A DNA stretch of 64,000 nucleotides from the human T2T-CHM13v2.0 reference genome, Homo sapiens, in the NCBI RefSeq assembly GCF_009914755.1, contig NC_060925.1; one strand, given 5' to 3'. The translations under genes and the position numbers were made by a program. The notes below the pieces were generated by a model, which worked only from the letters and a program-made list of their open reading frames with translations, searched no databases and had not been told where the DNA came from. Below are positions 7,689 through 57,660 of the stretch, piece by piece (the first letter of the stretch is position 1; every line of letters begins with the position of its first letter).

Positions 7689-8521
7689 TACCTTCAAGTT
7701 TCTATCTACACACAGATCACCCCAATCTACCAGTGTGACTTCCAGGGATGGGTTCTTTCCTGAGCCCTGCATTCCTCAAGTTTTCAAGCATCAATGACAC
7801 CAGTTAGGTTGGATTTCTATCTGACTCCACATCATTTCTGTGGGTTCTTCATCTTGTGGATCTTAGCTTACTCTTTCCCCGGCTGTGCGCCTCTGTTTTC
7901 TCCCTACAACGCCCTTCTGCAGATAATCTGGGTCAATCAACATGAATGGGTGAAGCAGAAGTGAGAAGGAAATGAGAAAAAGCATAAAATAATAAATGGC
8001 AATGTAAAATATTAATTTGGAAGCCAACTTTGGAGACTGCATAATGTACATGCCATCTACATGACCATAAATTAAATATTTGCAACAATGTGTAATTTTC
8101 GTGATTATGGAGGGTGTGGCCTTCAAGAAAATACTAGTGGCAACAGATACAGTCCTATATTCCTGTAAGATGTTACGTAGGATATTTGCATGTTCTAAGG
8201 ATTAAAGTAACCGGATCTTAATAGACTAGTGGGCACATATAAGAACATTCTGAATTGGGGTTTACATTTTTAAAATGTTAGACAAATATCACAATAAGTC
8301 AAATGGAAAACCCATGGGGCATTAAATTACCTGCAAATTTTAATATACAGACAACCTCAATCCACCAGTGTGGCTCCTGGGGATGGGCTCCTTCCTGAGT
8401 CCTGTATTCCTCAGGCTTTCAAGCACTGGGGACACCAGTTAGGGGGATTTCTGACTCCACATCATTTCTACTGGAGGCATTCATTTTTTTTTTTTTTTAT
8501 CTTGTGGATCTTAGCTTACTC
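7689..8521 (+). repeat. Diverged local direct duplication of ~185-195 bp (7689-7873 and 8328-8521)
   Basis: Shared blocks CCAGTGTG..GGGATGGG..TTCCTGAG, GACACCAGTTAGG, TCTGACTCCACATCATTTCT, ATCTTGTGGATCTTAGCTTACTC. Confidence 0.9.
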
Positions 8522-18812: not shown

Positions 18813-19012
18813 CTACAAGTTTTGATGTGAAATACAGCATTTTTGTTGCCAATGTTTCGTACCAGCAGAATCTTCTGGGTGCTGTATTTGACAGGACAAG
18901 TGGAAAAATTCAGCTTGTCAGGAAAATCGAGAATGGCTCGTGCCCCTCTAGCTTTGATGGGTACAATAAACTTTTCTCTTTCAGTAACACAGGTCAACGT
19001 ATGGGCGTAATC
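18813..19012 (-). CDS. HYDIN2: HYDIN-type coding exon (exon 6 equivalent, 200 nt): DYAHTLTCVTEREKFIVPIKARGARAILDFPDKLNFSTCPVKYSTQKILLVRNIGNKNAVFHIKTC(R)
   Basis: Acceptor CCCTTCCCTTGTAG|GAT and donor TGTAG|GTATGC; open frame in ORF 18797..18997; peptide recognised as the HYDIN N-terminal region; phase joins the next exon. Confidence 0.93.
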
Positions 19013-22874: not shown

Positions 22875-23035
22875 TTAAATAAAGAATGTAACTGGATTGT
22901 GTGTAACTCAAAGGATAAATGCTTGAGGGGATGAAACCCCATTCTCCATGAGGTGCTTATTTCACATTGCATGCTTACATCAAAACATCTCATGTACCCC
23001 ATAAATATATATATCTACTGTGTACCCACAAAAAT
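22875..23035 (+). mobile_element. L1MA 3' tail fragment
   Basis: AAAGGATAAATGCTTGAGGGGATG..CATGTACCCCATAAATATATA..TGTACCCACAAAAAT. Confidence 0.8.
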
Positions 23036-23065
23036 ACTTTTTATTTAAAATATATCTTTTAAAAT

Positions 23066-23384
23066 GGCTGGGCGTGGTGGCTCAAGTCTATAATCCCAGC
23101 ATTTTGAGAGGCTGAGGCAGGTGGATCACTTCAGGCCAGGAGTTCAAGACCAGCCTGGCCAACATGGCAAAACCCAGCCTCTATAAAAATTAGCGGGGCA
23201 TGGTGGCTCACACCTGTAGTCTCAGCTACTCAGTAAGCTGAGGCAGAGAACTGCTTGAACCCGGGAGATGGAGGCTGCAGTGAGCCGAGATCGCACCACT
23301 GCACCCCAGCCTGGGCGACAGAGTGAGACTCTGTCTCAAAAAAATTAATAAATAAATAAAATAAAAACAAAAATAAAAATAAAA
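23066..23384 (+). mobile_element. AluS
   Basis: Alu consensus with A-rich tail. Confidence 0.93.
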
Positions 23385-24271
23385 TTTTAAAAATTGAGTT
23401 GTTAGACTCTTAGCTCTGCAATTGATTCTGGTTTCCAGATGGTAATGCCAGACTCAAAACTTATGCTATCTAGACATGAGGAAGCACAAATTACACTAAG
23501 CACACTTGATCTTAGAAAACCCCACATAATTCAACAATGCAACAGCCTAGTCTGATTACTACAGAATCCTAAAGAGATAAGTACTATTTTCGCTTTTTCT
23601 TAGGCGATCAAATCCAGCCAGCATATGTTTTTTTGGGAATTATAAACTGAAAAGCCCCTGGCACATGTGGAGACTGAGCATTAACTGAGGCGTTGAGAGC
23701 TAGAACAAAAGATGCTGCTGAATCCAGGATAAGAGGAGATCCTGAAGTGTTTGTCTCATTTTATTCTGTACTCACATATCCGCTGCCTTGTTCTAGAAGG
23801 AATTAAAGGCAGCTGTAAATAGTTTAGGAGGCTAATTGAAATACTGAGAGAGATGTTTTCAGACCTTTTCAAGTTCCCAAATAAGGAAGGTTTGAAGTTT
23901 GATTTGCCTTATAAATTTTTTCATAATCAATTCACACACCCATAAAAGAATATAAGGTTCTTTAAACAAGTCCCTTAAAATGTATTCCAATCTCTGAAGT
24001 TATGCACTTAATATGACTATATTAGATCATACATCATTATATATTGCTCTGCTGGCTTACAATTAATTCAGATGTTATGACTAGGGAGGCTCTGATGGCC
24101 TGCAGGCTTAAGCAATCACTTCAGTTGATGAACTGAACACCCAGCCTCACAAACCTGCTTTTCCTCCTCTGTTCCCTATCTCTGTAAATGACACCACCAT
24201 TTGACCAGTTGTTAGCCAAAATCCTACAGTTCAAACTAGGTGCATTTCTTTCTCGTATCATCGATCCATCA

Positions 24272-24608
<337 letters not shown>

Positions 24609-24943
24609 AAAAGTATACATCCTTACTCCTCCTACTTCTCATCACCTTCACTGTCACCACCCTCATCCAAACTTCCTTATCTTTTACCTGAACTACTATA
24701 GTAGCCTCTGCCCCCTGTATGCATCAGGGATCAGTCAGCTACGTTATAAAAGGAAAAAGAGCAAAATCAGAGCAGTTTACACTAGGCAGAAGTTTATTTA
24801 TCTTATACAAAGAAGTCCAGAGGTAGGTAGGCCAGGTCGGTAGGGTGGCTCAACAGTGTCATCAGAGACTCAAATTCCTAAATTCCTGCTCTACCATTCT
24901 AGCATGCAGTTCCCATCCTCGATGTCACCCTGTGGGGCAGAGT

Positions 24944-25672
24944 TGTAACCACCCAATGGGTTCTTCCAGCCTGCTCCCCAGAGAGAGCCAATTTATCAAG
25001 ACAGGGCAATTGCAATAGAGAAAGTTTTACACATATAGAACTGGCTAAACAGGAGACTAGAGTTTTATTATTACGCAAATCAACCGCCCTGAAAATTTGG
25101 AGACTATGGTTTTTTAAAGATAGTTTAGGAGAGGGGGGTGGCTAGGGAATGGGTGCTGCTGATTGATTGGGGGTGCAATCATAGGGGTGTGGAAAATGGT
25201 CTTCATGAGCTGCTAAGTCCACTTCTGGGTGGAGCCGCAGGACCAGTTTGTGGGTCTGGGTGGAGCCATCCATTTTCAGAAACGCAAAAATCTGAAAAGG
25301 CATCTCAAAAGGCCAATCTTAAGTTCTACAACAGTCATGTTATCTGCAGGAACAACTGGGAAGTTGCAAATCTTGTGACCTCTGGAATAATGGTTGGTAA
25401 TTATTTATATCTACATGTTAACAGAATTCAGGTTCCTCTCATCCTCCTAACCTGGTGATCTTTCATCAGCTTTACACAAAGGTGGTTTAGTTTTGAGGAA
25501 CAGATACAATCTTTTAAACTATAAACTAAATTTCTCCCAAAGTTAACTTGGCGTAAGCCCAGAAATGAGTAAGGCATTTTGGAGGTTAAAAGCAAGATGG
25601 GGGTTGGTTAGATCAGATCCCTTTCACTGTCATAATTTTCTCACTGTTATAGTTTTTGCAAAGGTGGTTTCA
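24944..25672 (-). mobile_element. Solo LTR8A-like (ERV1) LTR, probably chimeric
   Basis: Minus strand starts TGAAACCACCTTTGCAAAAACTATAACAGTGAG and ends GGGTGGTTACA; 729 bp; flanks GAGT and TAAT are not a TSD. Confidence 0.85.
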
Positions 25673-25895
25673 TAATGGAGAAAACAGCAGACACTAACCT
25701 AATGGAGTGCTCAAAATAAATAACACCATTAATAAGTCATATATCAGCATCATGAATCCCTTGGCATGATGTGCTGAAAAGGGATACAGTATCATTTCTG
25801 CGGTATTCTTGCCAAAATGGCATGACTTCACTCTAATCATGACAAAACATTAGACAAACCTAAAGTGAAGGACATTCTACCAAATTACTAATCAG

Positions 25896-26566
25896 TGTAT
25901 TTATAGGTAGACAGGCATAAGCAGGGCAGGAGTGGGCTTTTCCCCCACCCACTAAAAATGTCAGGTGATGGTTTGGCAGTTATCACATTGCCTCTCTAAA
26001 AGTGATAAATTGGCAGCCAGCACCAGGGAGAGGCCTTTTCCTGATGGTCCACACCTGTTGCACTAAAGAGTGAACTGAGTATAGGTGCCAGGGAAACACA
26101 ACTTCCTAGACATGCGCATTAGGAGATAAAATGGCAGGGTATGACCTTCCAAGGGCACGCCATGAGAAAAGGGAAGAAAGCCTCTAATGGGCATGCATAC
26201 AACTTCCTAAACACAGTGCACATGCTCATCTCCCAAGGGTAAGGAGGGCTCTGTGCATGAGGGCAGCCTACTTTAAGGGAAGAATCATGGGAAAGAGGCC
26301 AGCCTATAAAGTCTTAGGATCAAGGTTAAACACTACTCTTGACCTTCACATGCCCACTTGGGTCTCTTCCAAGCATACTTTCCTTTCTTTCCTGTTCTAA
26401 AGCCTTTTTAAATAAACTCCCACTCCTACTCTGAAAGTTGCCTTGATCTCTTTTTCTGCCTTATGCCCCTCAGTCAAATTCTTTCTTCTGAGGGGGCAAG
26501 AACTGAGGTTGCTGCAGACCTGTATGGATTTGCCACCAGTAACTCGGATACCTTCCACTGGTAACA
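25896..26566 (+). mobile_element. MER50-like solo LTR (ERV1)
   Basis: TG..CA ends; AGCAGGGCAGGAG, CCTATAAAG TATA-like box, AATAAA, end CCACTGGTAACA; TSD ATCAG at 25891-25895 and 26567-26571. Confidence 0.82.
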
Positions 26567-26712
26567 ATCAGTATCCTTCAAAGAGTGCCAAAGTTATGAA
26601 GGATAAGGAAAGACTAGGGAACTGTCACAGATTGGAGTCAACTAGGGAGAAATACAACTCAATACAATGCGGGGTCCCGGATAGGCTCCTGAGGCAGAAA
26701 AATGATATTTGG

Positions 26713-26801
26713 GTCTATGGCCATACCACCCTGAATGCACCCAATCTTGTCTGATCTTAGAAGCTAAGCAAGGTTAGGCCCGTTAGTACTTGGATGGGAG
26801 A
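26713..26801 (+). pseudogene. 5S rRNA retropseudogene, 3'-truncated and tailless
   Basis: GTCTATGGCCATACCACCCTGAA...GTTAGTACTTGGATGGGAGA matches about the first 90 nt of 5S rRNA with CpG decay; TSD AGAAAAATGATATTTG at 26696-26711 and 26799-26814. Confidence 0.95.
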
Positions 26802-28958
26802 AAAATGATATTTGCAGGAAAACTGGTAAAGATCAGATGAAGTCTGTAGCTTAGTTAATAATATTGTACCGATGTCAATTTCCTATTCTTGATAATTAAA
26901 ATGATGAGAGAGATTCAACATAAGTGGAAGCAGGGTAAGGGATTAAAGGAACACTTTCTAGTGTTTTTGCAATTTCTTAAAGTCTAAAATTCATTCAAAA
27001 TAAAATAATGCTTTAAAACCAAAAATAAATAAATAAAATGGGTCTCTTCTATTAAGGGTTTTCTAGAAACCTCCATCTTTCCACCACTCTCCTATAAAAG
27101 TTTTAAAACATTTTCAAAAGCCACTTATCACTATTCTTAGACTGCCAGTGATCAAAAGGGCAGCCTCGCGGGTTGCAAATTAGTGAAGAAGAGAAAGCTA
27201 GAAGGAAGAGGAAGTGGAGCATCTGAGGGAAAGATTTTTAAATGAACTTCTTTGTGTTGCTAAATTTATTCGTATCCTGGAATGGGCTACAACCATCACA
27301 AGGACATAAAAATCATCAGGTAAATTCAAGGACTTTTTAAAAATGCATCTAATCACCTCCTGTCCAAAACATTCAAGCTTAACCTTTCTCTTGAAAATGC
27401 AATCTGCTCTTTACACCCTGCCTGCATACCAGATTCTGAGACCTAGATTGCCACAGGAGCAGAATCATCACCTTGTCCTGATTCAATAGGTTCTTGTTGT
27501 TACATTATCAGCTTAAGATCCTGGGATATGTGGAGATGTGCCTATTCATTACTGAAAGAGTTCATGCACAATTTATGTCCTTCACATAACTTTGTCCTTA
27601 AAGGCTATTTTCTGAATCCATTTCAGTTATGTTTTCCCAACAGCCATATTAGGAGGTGACTGTTGTTTTTCCATATTCAAAGTAAAAGAAATGAGACAAA
27701 TATCTCAAAATGATTGAGGTGCTCACAATAAAAATGTAGTGGTAAAGATAGTACCAGATCTCGTGTCTGTAGCTTCTGTGCCCTCTTTCATAGTCCAGAG
27801 GACTGAGCTACTCTAGCAAATGGGTATATGAGAACTGGTGACCACAGTTAATCCAGCTGACATGACACCAGCCATTACATTCAAGTGCAGTGATGTATTT
27901 TGCATTGCTCAGCTCTTTCTACTTTTCAAAGTCCTCTTCACATATTTCATTGAATTTGATTCTCAAACCACATTGTAATGTAAGTAGAATAGCTATTTCC
28001 TTTTAGTAATCGTAACATCATGCCATTCAATATATAAATAAAGCCCCTTTATTAACATTACCTTATCTAGGTCCCACTAAAAGAAAAAATATAAAGTAGT
28101 AGAGTCCCCATTTTCTAGATAACTGAGGCTCAAAGATTGACTGGTCCAAAGACACCCAGGCAATGAAGGGGAAGATGGAATGTAAGAGCAAGTCTTTTTG
28201 ACTCATTATCCAGTCATATTTCCCCCACTGTGCAATAGCTGCATAGCAAAATGAAGAAAAATTACAAGTTTCTGACTATGAGTCCAAAAATGAGTTAACA
28301 TGTGATTTTATGCTAGAAGATAATCTAATGAGGTCACTCTGCTTAGCTGCTTAGCTACCGCTGTTATCCCAATGGGACTGGGCAAGAATAGAACCAAGTC
28401 ATGCAAGTAAGAGTAGCACCTGATTGGGCACTGGGCTTGGATTCAGGTTGTTATCTCTATGGATAGCTGTGGTTCACTGAGGAACCATTCCAAAGATGTT
28501 AGAAGAGCCAGACAGAACCTACATTAATTCATTGGTTAAAGCTCAGAAATAATCATGAGGTCTCTGAGACAGGAGACAATTAGACATAGGATGGCTCCTA
28601 TTATACACAAAATTTCATTGAGTCAGCTCTCTCCGCTTTACTTCTTGCCCTAGTATATCTTAAATATGTGGTTTTCCCCTTGCCTAATCCAGGAAAGCTG
28701 GATTTCATAACTAACAAGACTTTAGACTTGTGCTTCACCTTTCAGCATGCTTCTGGGTTCCATGATGTCCCAGAGCCTATGTGCTTATGATTAAAAAAAA
28801 AAAAAGAAACTGAAGAGGGACCCCAGTCTGCAGGAGTGAGATGGGCATGGGAAGAATTACATTTTCTCTGGTTCCTGGGTATGCTGAAGATGACATCCAG
28901 GAGAAAACTTCTGGCCCCTCAAACTGCCCCATAGCTCAGCCTGCGGGCTGCGACTTAC

Positions 28959-56586: not shown

Positions 56587-57660
<1,074 letters not shown>

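What the first reader, a model, noticed from the sequence alone, without database searches (positions are those of the whole stretch)
24720..25900. TSD-less, probably chimeric LTR8A marks the duplication breakpoint
Seen: a full-length (729 bp) LTR with intact TG/CA ends whose flanks are GAGT and TAAT. The neighbouring MER50, 5S, Alu and MaLR insertions all keep recognisable TSDs. The old repeat-like sequence on the left (~24720-24943) does not resume on the right, where an L1MC 3' region starts abruptly. Inference: the two halves come from different LTR8-family copies (chr16 donor, chr1 acceptor) joined by homology-mediated repair, so this LTR is the scar of the event that created the fusion gene.
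Basis: partly seen in the sequence, partly recalled or inferred. Interest (0 to 1): 0.75.

Follow-up and report, generated by a model that had tools for sequence, protein, structure and literature searches.

The report
HYDIN2 duplication junction beside intact LTR
This is the already-published edge of the duplication that created the human-specific HYDIN2 gene: chromosome 16 DNA is joined just outside one old, intact retroviral LTR on chromosome 1, likely by end-joining or template switching rather than by recombination between two LTRs.

Summary
Window 23001-24943 is 99.6% identical to chr16 (HYDIN). Window 24941-28000 is 99.6% identical to an uninterrupted chr1 paralog and 93.8% to a second. 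The switch is a 3-bp overlap (AGT, 24941-24943) immediately outside the LTR. All 729 LTR bases follow the chr1 copies (2 differences from the near paralog), and chr16 has no such LTR at either junction, so the LTR is not chimeric. In the paralogs its flanks are TAGT/TAAT, a 4-bp TSD with one change, as in 10 of 27 other family copies. GAGT arises because chr16 replaced the first TSD base. The far junction has 1 bp of perfect microhomology, and 840 bp of L1 were lost between the two overlaps. Dougherty et al. 2017 (PMC5345166) already report insertion at an LTR/LINE boundary with loss of 841 bp. Verdict: known breakpoint; LTR-LTR recombination refuted; likely microhomology-assisted or non-homologous insertion.

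The parts
23001..24943 (+). End of the chr16 (HYDIN intron) duplicated block; continues leftwards out of the checked stretch
   Evidence: 99.6% identity, 8 mismatches in 1943 bp, to G000:C16 ending at 76979800
24716..24943 (.). Old repeat (MaLR/MLT1-like, name recalled) cut in two by the donor break; the rest lies on chr16
   Evidence: 1 of 3 fetched copies (L066) matches both sides of the donor break above all 100 shuffles; L067 spans it more weakly (3 of 100 shuffles reach the right-side score); L068 matches the left side only
24941..24943 (+). Junction: 3-bp microhomology AGT shared by chr16 and the chr1 pre-insertion site; equals the last three bases of the LTR's left TSD copy
   Evidence: four-way alignment; chance of 3 bp or more is 6%
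24944..25672 (-). Intact solo LTR, 729 bp, TG...CA, ERV1/LTR8-like (name recalled), wholly from chr1
   Evidence: 2 differences from the 1q21 paralog, 93-98% to the 1p22 copy in every sixth, 22 locus-private positions spread 4,4,4,2,4,4; orientation inferred from the single minus-strand AATAAA
25064..25069 (-). AATAAA in the LTR, in HYDIN2 sense orientation; use untested
   Evidence: motif scan
25673..25676 (+). Right TSD copy TAAT (likely TAGT with one old change)
   Evidence: left copy TAGT in both paralogs; the unsplit site reads xAGT in 7 of 10 other L1 copies
25673..25895 (+). 3' part of the old L1 (L1MC-like, name recalled) into which the LTR had inserted
   Evidence: other L1 copies run from the paralog's left flank into this piece, with a 4-base overlap in 5 of 10
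25896..26566 (.). Second solo LTR (MER50-like, name recalled) inserted in the same L1, 5-bp TSD ATCAG
18813..19012 (-). First HYDIN-derived exon downstream of the junction
   Evidence: open frame matching PF22544 HYDIN Ig-like domain, E 9e-10; exon coordinates from the hub's RefSeq table

Best explanation
The LTR at 24944-25672 is one intact chr1 insertion, and the chr16 HYDIN block is joined to its outer edge through a 3-bp overlap, likely by microhomology-assisted template switching or end-joining at a break in the adjacent L1. Step 1 (shown): a solo LTR sits in an old L1 with a 4-bp TSD (TAGT/TAAT) in both uninterrupted chr1 paralogs. Step 2 (from PMC5345166): that segment was copied from 1p22.3 to 1q21 about 21 Mya and again about 3 Mya. 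Step 3 (shown): in the 1q21.1 copy, 840 bp of L1 left of the LTR, including the first TSD base, were replaced by about 357 kb of chr16; the two junctions have 3 bp and 1 bp of perfect overlap and no inserted bases. Step 4 (inferred): a break or stalled fork in the L1 copied chr16 DNA without extended homology (MMBIR/FoSTeS-type switching or Pol theta/NHEJ-type joining). The LTR is likely a bystander.
For: Switch point mapped outside the LTR. The LTR follows both paralogs end to end, with locus-private positions evenly spread. No LTR match on chr16 at either junction; best hits 16-17 bp, E at least 0.11. TSD state normal for the family: of 27 unrelated copies, 11 perfect, 10 one mismatch, 3 two, 3 four. 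The L1 is continuous across the LTR site in other copies. The far junction and the 840-bp loss agree with the chimpanzee-based 841 bp in PMC5345166.
Against: The overlaps are weak: chance of 3 bp or more is 6% and of 1 bp or more is 45%, so microhomology use is not proven over blunt joining. A break landing within 3 bp of an LTR end is uncommon by chance (my rough post hoc estimate is about 0.25% for LTR ends). No non-human primate genome was available, so human paralogs stood in for the pre-insertion site. The donor and acceptor spans differ by about 7.2 kb and the interior was not checked.
Confidence: 0.9

Rival explanations
1. One reading: the LTR is a chimera of a chr16 and a chr1 LTR8-family copy joined by homologous repair.
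For: The window's own flanks GAGT/TAAT differ at 2 of 4 positions, and left and right flanks come from different loci.
Against: chr16 identity ends at 24943 and chr16 continues with the old repeat, not an LTR. The first 121 LTR bases are 100% identical to the chr1 paralog, while unrelated copies reach at most 86.8%.
Confidence: 0.01
2. The LTR end helped fix where the break or resection stopped (for example a protein-bound or nucleosome boundary, or cleavage at the terminus), so it was more than a bystander.
For: The junction can be placed exactly at the LTR's terminal base, and that is rare by chance (rough estimate from about 10 LTR ends seen in 64 kb).
Against: One case, noticed post hoc. 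The other three break ends lie inside an L1, an Alu and an old MaLR-like repeat. None of the four 101-nt break regions folds better than shuffles (z -0.22 to 0.75). Family copies are about 21% diverged, so an active cognate integrase about 3 Mya is unlikely (inference).
Confidence: 0.06
3. The LTR is an older chimera, from before the 1p22 to 1q21 duplication, formed by recombination between two LTRs at different loci.
For: The TSD in the paralogs is imperfect; a 3-of-4 match arises by chance about 6% of the time.
Against: The L1 runs continuously across the site with a 4-base overlap in 5 of 10 other copies, and the paralog's left flank beats all 200 shuffles in 6 of 10. One-mismatch TSDs are common in the family.
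Confidence: 0.02
4. No rearrangement here; the TSD simply decayed at one contiguous locus.
For: One TSD base did decay (TAGT vs TAAT) before the duplications.
Against: The left flank is chr16-derived and the right flank chr1-derived.
Confidence: 0.01

Closest known systems
HYDIN2 5' duplication breakpoint (Dougherty et al. 2017, PMC5345166; seen: abstract, passages, section 5 with the Fig. 1 legend, term search of 2 text supplements; the figure itself is not held)
   Same: [quoted passage not shown]
   Different: No conflict. The text I saw does not name the LTR family, the TSD or the microhomology; the Fig. 1b alignment may show them.
HYDIN2 as a 'simple intron fusion' chimeric pseudogene (PMC13122177; seen: passages and section 24)
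   Same: Intron fusion of RP4-565E6.1 and HYDIN, checked by genomic PCR and Sanger sequencing.
   Different: No occurrence of LTR, breakpoint or microhomology in its main text; supplements not read.
Duplicative transpositions with short microhomology or none at 16p12-13 (bioRxiv 10.1101/2025.07.09.663898; seen: passages)
   Same: Interspersed duplication junctions with 3-bp microhomology (AAG, CCT) or no homology.
   Different: Those events are tied to LCR16a cores and often to Alu-Alu homology; here no extended homology exists at either end.
NAHR between solo LTRs/HERVs giving chimeric LTRs (recalled)
   Same: Mismatched flanks around an apparently full-length LTR.
   Different: Requires an LTR at both parental sites and an internal switch point; both tested and not met.

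Membership tests
Chimeric LTR from LTR-LTR recombination (NAHR/HR) | An LTR of the same family at both parental loci | tested here: not met
   No match to the LTR in the 4.4-kb chr16 loci at either junction
Chimeric LTR from LTR-LTR recombination (NAHR/HR) | Identity switch point inside the LTR | tested here: not met
   Switch at 24941-24943, outside the LTR; 2 differences in 729 bp from the chr1 paralog
Chimeric LTR from LTR-LTR recombination (NAHR/HR) | Left and right flanks from different loci | tested here: met
   chr16 left, chr1 right, but explained by a junction outside the LTR
ERV1-type solo LTR | TG...CA termini and a dispersed family of same-length copies | tested here: met
   copies at 76-82% identity, most with the same ends
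ERV1-type solo LTR | 4-bp TSD (ERV1 rule recalled) | tested here: met
   21 of 27 unrelated copies have a 4-bp TSD with 0-1 mismatch; paralogs TAGT/TAAT; 4-base overlap in 5 of 10 unsplit L1 copies
LTR8A subfamily (HUERS-P1 LTRs: LTR8, LTR8A, LTR8B per PMC5753468 Table 4, passages seen) | Best match to the LTR8A model over LTR8 and LTR8B | not testable with these tools
   No Dfam/Repbase library; the LTR8-like name is recalled
Microhomology-mediated (MMBIR/FoSTeS/TMEJ) duplicative insertion | Short microhomology and no extended homology at the junctions | tested here: inconclusive
   3 bp and 1 bp perfect overlap, no in-register extended homology; chance levels 6% and 45%
Microhomology-mediated (MMBIR/FoSTeS/TMEJ) duplicative insertion | Target-site deletion instead of target-site duplication | tested here: met
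   840 bp of acceptor L1 absent between the two overlaps
Published HYDIN2 5' breakpoint | LTR/LINE boundary with 841-bp LINE loss | tested here: met
   840 bp plus the 1-bp far overlap vs PMC5345166
Published HYDIN2 5' breakpoint | Agreement with the chimpanzee pre-insertion sequence | not testable with these tools
   No ape genome held; human paralogs used instead

The most novel reading that the evidence does not exclude
The terminus of an old solo LTR set the break or resection boundary of the HYDIN2 insertion (for example through bound protein or chromatin at the LTR end), which would make LTR ends a general determinant of where segmental duplications land; its sense-strand poly(A) signal might also shape HYDIN2 fusion isoforms.
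Probability: 0.06. Interest if true: 0.55.

Novelty: already known. Interest (0 to 1): 0.12.

Why it matters
The site is the birth junction of a human-specific fusion gene, so it is biologically notable, but it was mapped in 2017. Had the LTR been chimeric, it would have shown ERV-LTR recombination between chromosomes creating a human gene; that is refuted. What is added is small: the 3-bp overlap is the remnant of the LTR's own TSD, which explains the false 'TSD-less' signal. The practical lesson for this scan is that mismatched LTR flanks inside segmental duplications need a paralog check before being called chimeras.

Tried and rejected
LTR chimerism: rejected. Extended donor-acceptor homology at either junction: none in register; the one 109-bp, 71% match at the near junction is out of register, between L1-like pieces away from the break. 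Secondary structure at the four break ends: not above shuffles. First L1-continuity test with loci L024-L028: uninformative, since the right flank found no in-register match; repeated with 10 short stretches chosen from the 40 rows because their match began near the flank's start, of which 2 (L071, L078) gave no significant left-flank match. A 20-kb genome search scored only 36 of 81742 candidates, all repeats, and showed nothing about block extent. Three partial LTR copies (L040, L047, L057) were left out of the alignment. Literature: 'HYDIN2 + duplication + microhomology' gave 0 papers; 'HYDIN2 + breakpoint + LTR' gave 1; bioRxiv 10.1101/2025.10.03.680410 passages have no LTR mention. listings were not read further. 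The FASTA supplement of PMC5345166 and its figures could not be read and may show the junction bases.

Full report
Observation. The window holds a 729-bp element at 24944-25672 with TG and CA ends and flanks GAGT and TAAT. All repeat family names in this report are recalled; no repeat library was available.

Where the junction is. A search of the own genome with 23500-27500 split the query in two. Window 23001-24943 matches G000:C16 up to 76979800 with 8 mismatches in 1943 bp. Window 24941-28000 matches a chr1 paralog at C1:146.61 Mb with 12 mismatches in 3060 bp and a second at C1:87.3 Mb at 93.8%. The next exon downstream in HYDIN2 orientation (18813-19012) encodes a HYDIN Ig-like domain.

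The LTR is not chimeric. It differs from the near paralog at 2 of 729 positions. In each sixth of its length it is 99-100% identical to that paralog and 93-98% to the 1p22 copy, while the best of 24 unrelated copies reaches 84-90% (three partial copies were left out). Twenty-two positions private to the three chr1 copies are spread evenly (4,4,4,2,4,4). The chr16 loci at both junctions hold no match to the LTR; the best hits are 16-17 bp at E 0.11 or worse.

The TSD exists. In both uninterrupted paralogs the flanks are TAGT and TAAT. Among 27 unrelated copies fetched (the best-scoring rows of 43, from 40 scored of 3746 candidates), the 4-bp flanks are identical in 11, differ at one base in 10, at two in 3 and at four in 3; some of the last are truncated copies. 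A 3-of-4 match alone arises by chance about 6% of the time, so I tested the host L1. In 10 other L1 copies, chosen from the 40 rows, the paralog's left flank beat all 200 shuffles in 6, was reached by 2-3 shuffles in 2 and failed in 2. The two flanks overlapped by exactly 4 bases in 5, and the site read xAGT in 7 (TAGT in 4). The window's chr16-derived left flank scored only 7-10 against all ten. So the LTR inserted once into this L1, the right TSD copy likely changed by one base before the paralogs split, and the chr16 junction later replaced the first base of the left copy.

The far junction. The paralog's left flank resumes at C1:147901839-147902497, where it meets C16:76622556. The perfect overlap there is one base (GAAC vs GAGC, 3 of 4), with no inserted bases. 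The chr16 break lies inside an Alu and the chr1 break inside the L1. Exactly 840 bp of paralog L1 lie between the two overlaps and are missing at HYDIN2. Both ends map to chr16 on the + strand in the expected order; the interior was not checked.

Mechanism. Shown: a target-site deletion, overlaps of 3 and 1 bp, and no extended homology in register. Inferred: a break or stalled fork in the L1 captured a copy of chr16 by microhomology-assisted template switching or end-joining. The overlaps are weak evidence (chance 6% and 45%), so these pathways cannot be told from blunt joining. None of the four break regions folds unusually. One oddity remains: the junction abuts the LTR end. From about 10 LTR ends seen in the 64-kb window and four break ends, my rough post hoc estimate of that chance is 0.25%, and it is much higher if any repeat end counts. 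I give a role for the LTR end 6%.

What is known. Dougherty et al. 2017 (PMC5345166; abstract, passages, section 5 and a term search of two text supplements seen, figures not) report a 364-kb duplication of HYDIN exons 6-84 about 3.2 Mya. [quoted passage not shown] My 840 bp plus the 1-bp overlap matches that figure. PMC13122177 (passages and section 24) lists HYDIN2 as a Sanger-validated simple intron fusion. Similar 3-bp or zero-homology duplication junctions are described at 16p12-13 (passages). A search for HYDIN2, duplication and microhomology found no paper, so the TSD-remnant detail may be unstated in text, though Fig. 1b of the 2017 paper probably displays it.

Verdict. Real junction, already known; chimeric-LTR reading refuted; interest 0.12.

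Noticed in passing
G000:C1:147902494-148266943 vs G000:C16:76622553-76979800: The chr1 copy of the duplicated block is about 7.2 kb longer than the chr16 donor span (364,450 vs 357,248 bp), although PMC5345166 reports a 2,095-bp deletion in HYDIN2; about 9 kb of gain on chr1 or loss on chr16 is not located.
   Followed up: no
L023/L059, G000:C1:147902497: The far junction can also be read as a 3-bp overlap (CTA) if one unit of a short AAC repeat in the acceptor was dropped by slippage; this needs an extra event and was not tested.
   Followed up: partly
window 25064-25069: The LTR lies in HYDIN2 sense orientation with an AATAAA about 6 kb upstream of the first HYDIN exon; it could end some transcripts of the 5' exon block. 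No transcript data checked.
   Followed up: no
window 26696-26814: The 5S pseudogene is 3'-truncated (about 26712-26798) between 16-bp TSDs, whereas the RefSeq row RNA5SP536 runs to 26838, past the right TSD.
   Followed up: partly
window 56747-57439: A MaLR-like solo LTR interrupted by an Alu has flanks ACTGG/ACTGA, another one-mismatch TSD like that of the LTR studied.
   Followed up: partly
L003/L031, G000:C1:87297627-87297628: The 1p22 copy of the LTR has lost its terminal CA (reads TA), while both 1q21 copies keep it.
   Followed up: yes
window 7712-7808 and 8347-8443: A two-copy 97-nt direct repeat, 80% identical, 635 bp apart, not identified.
   Followed up: no
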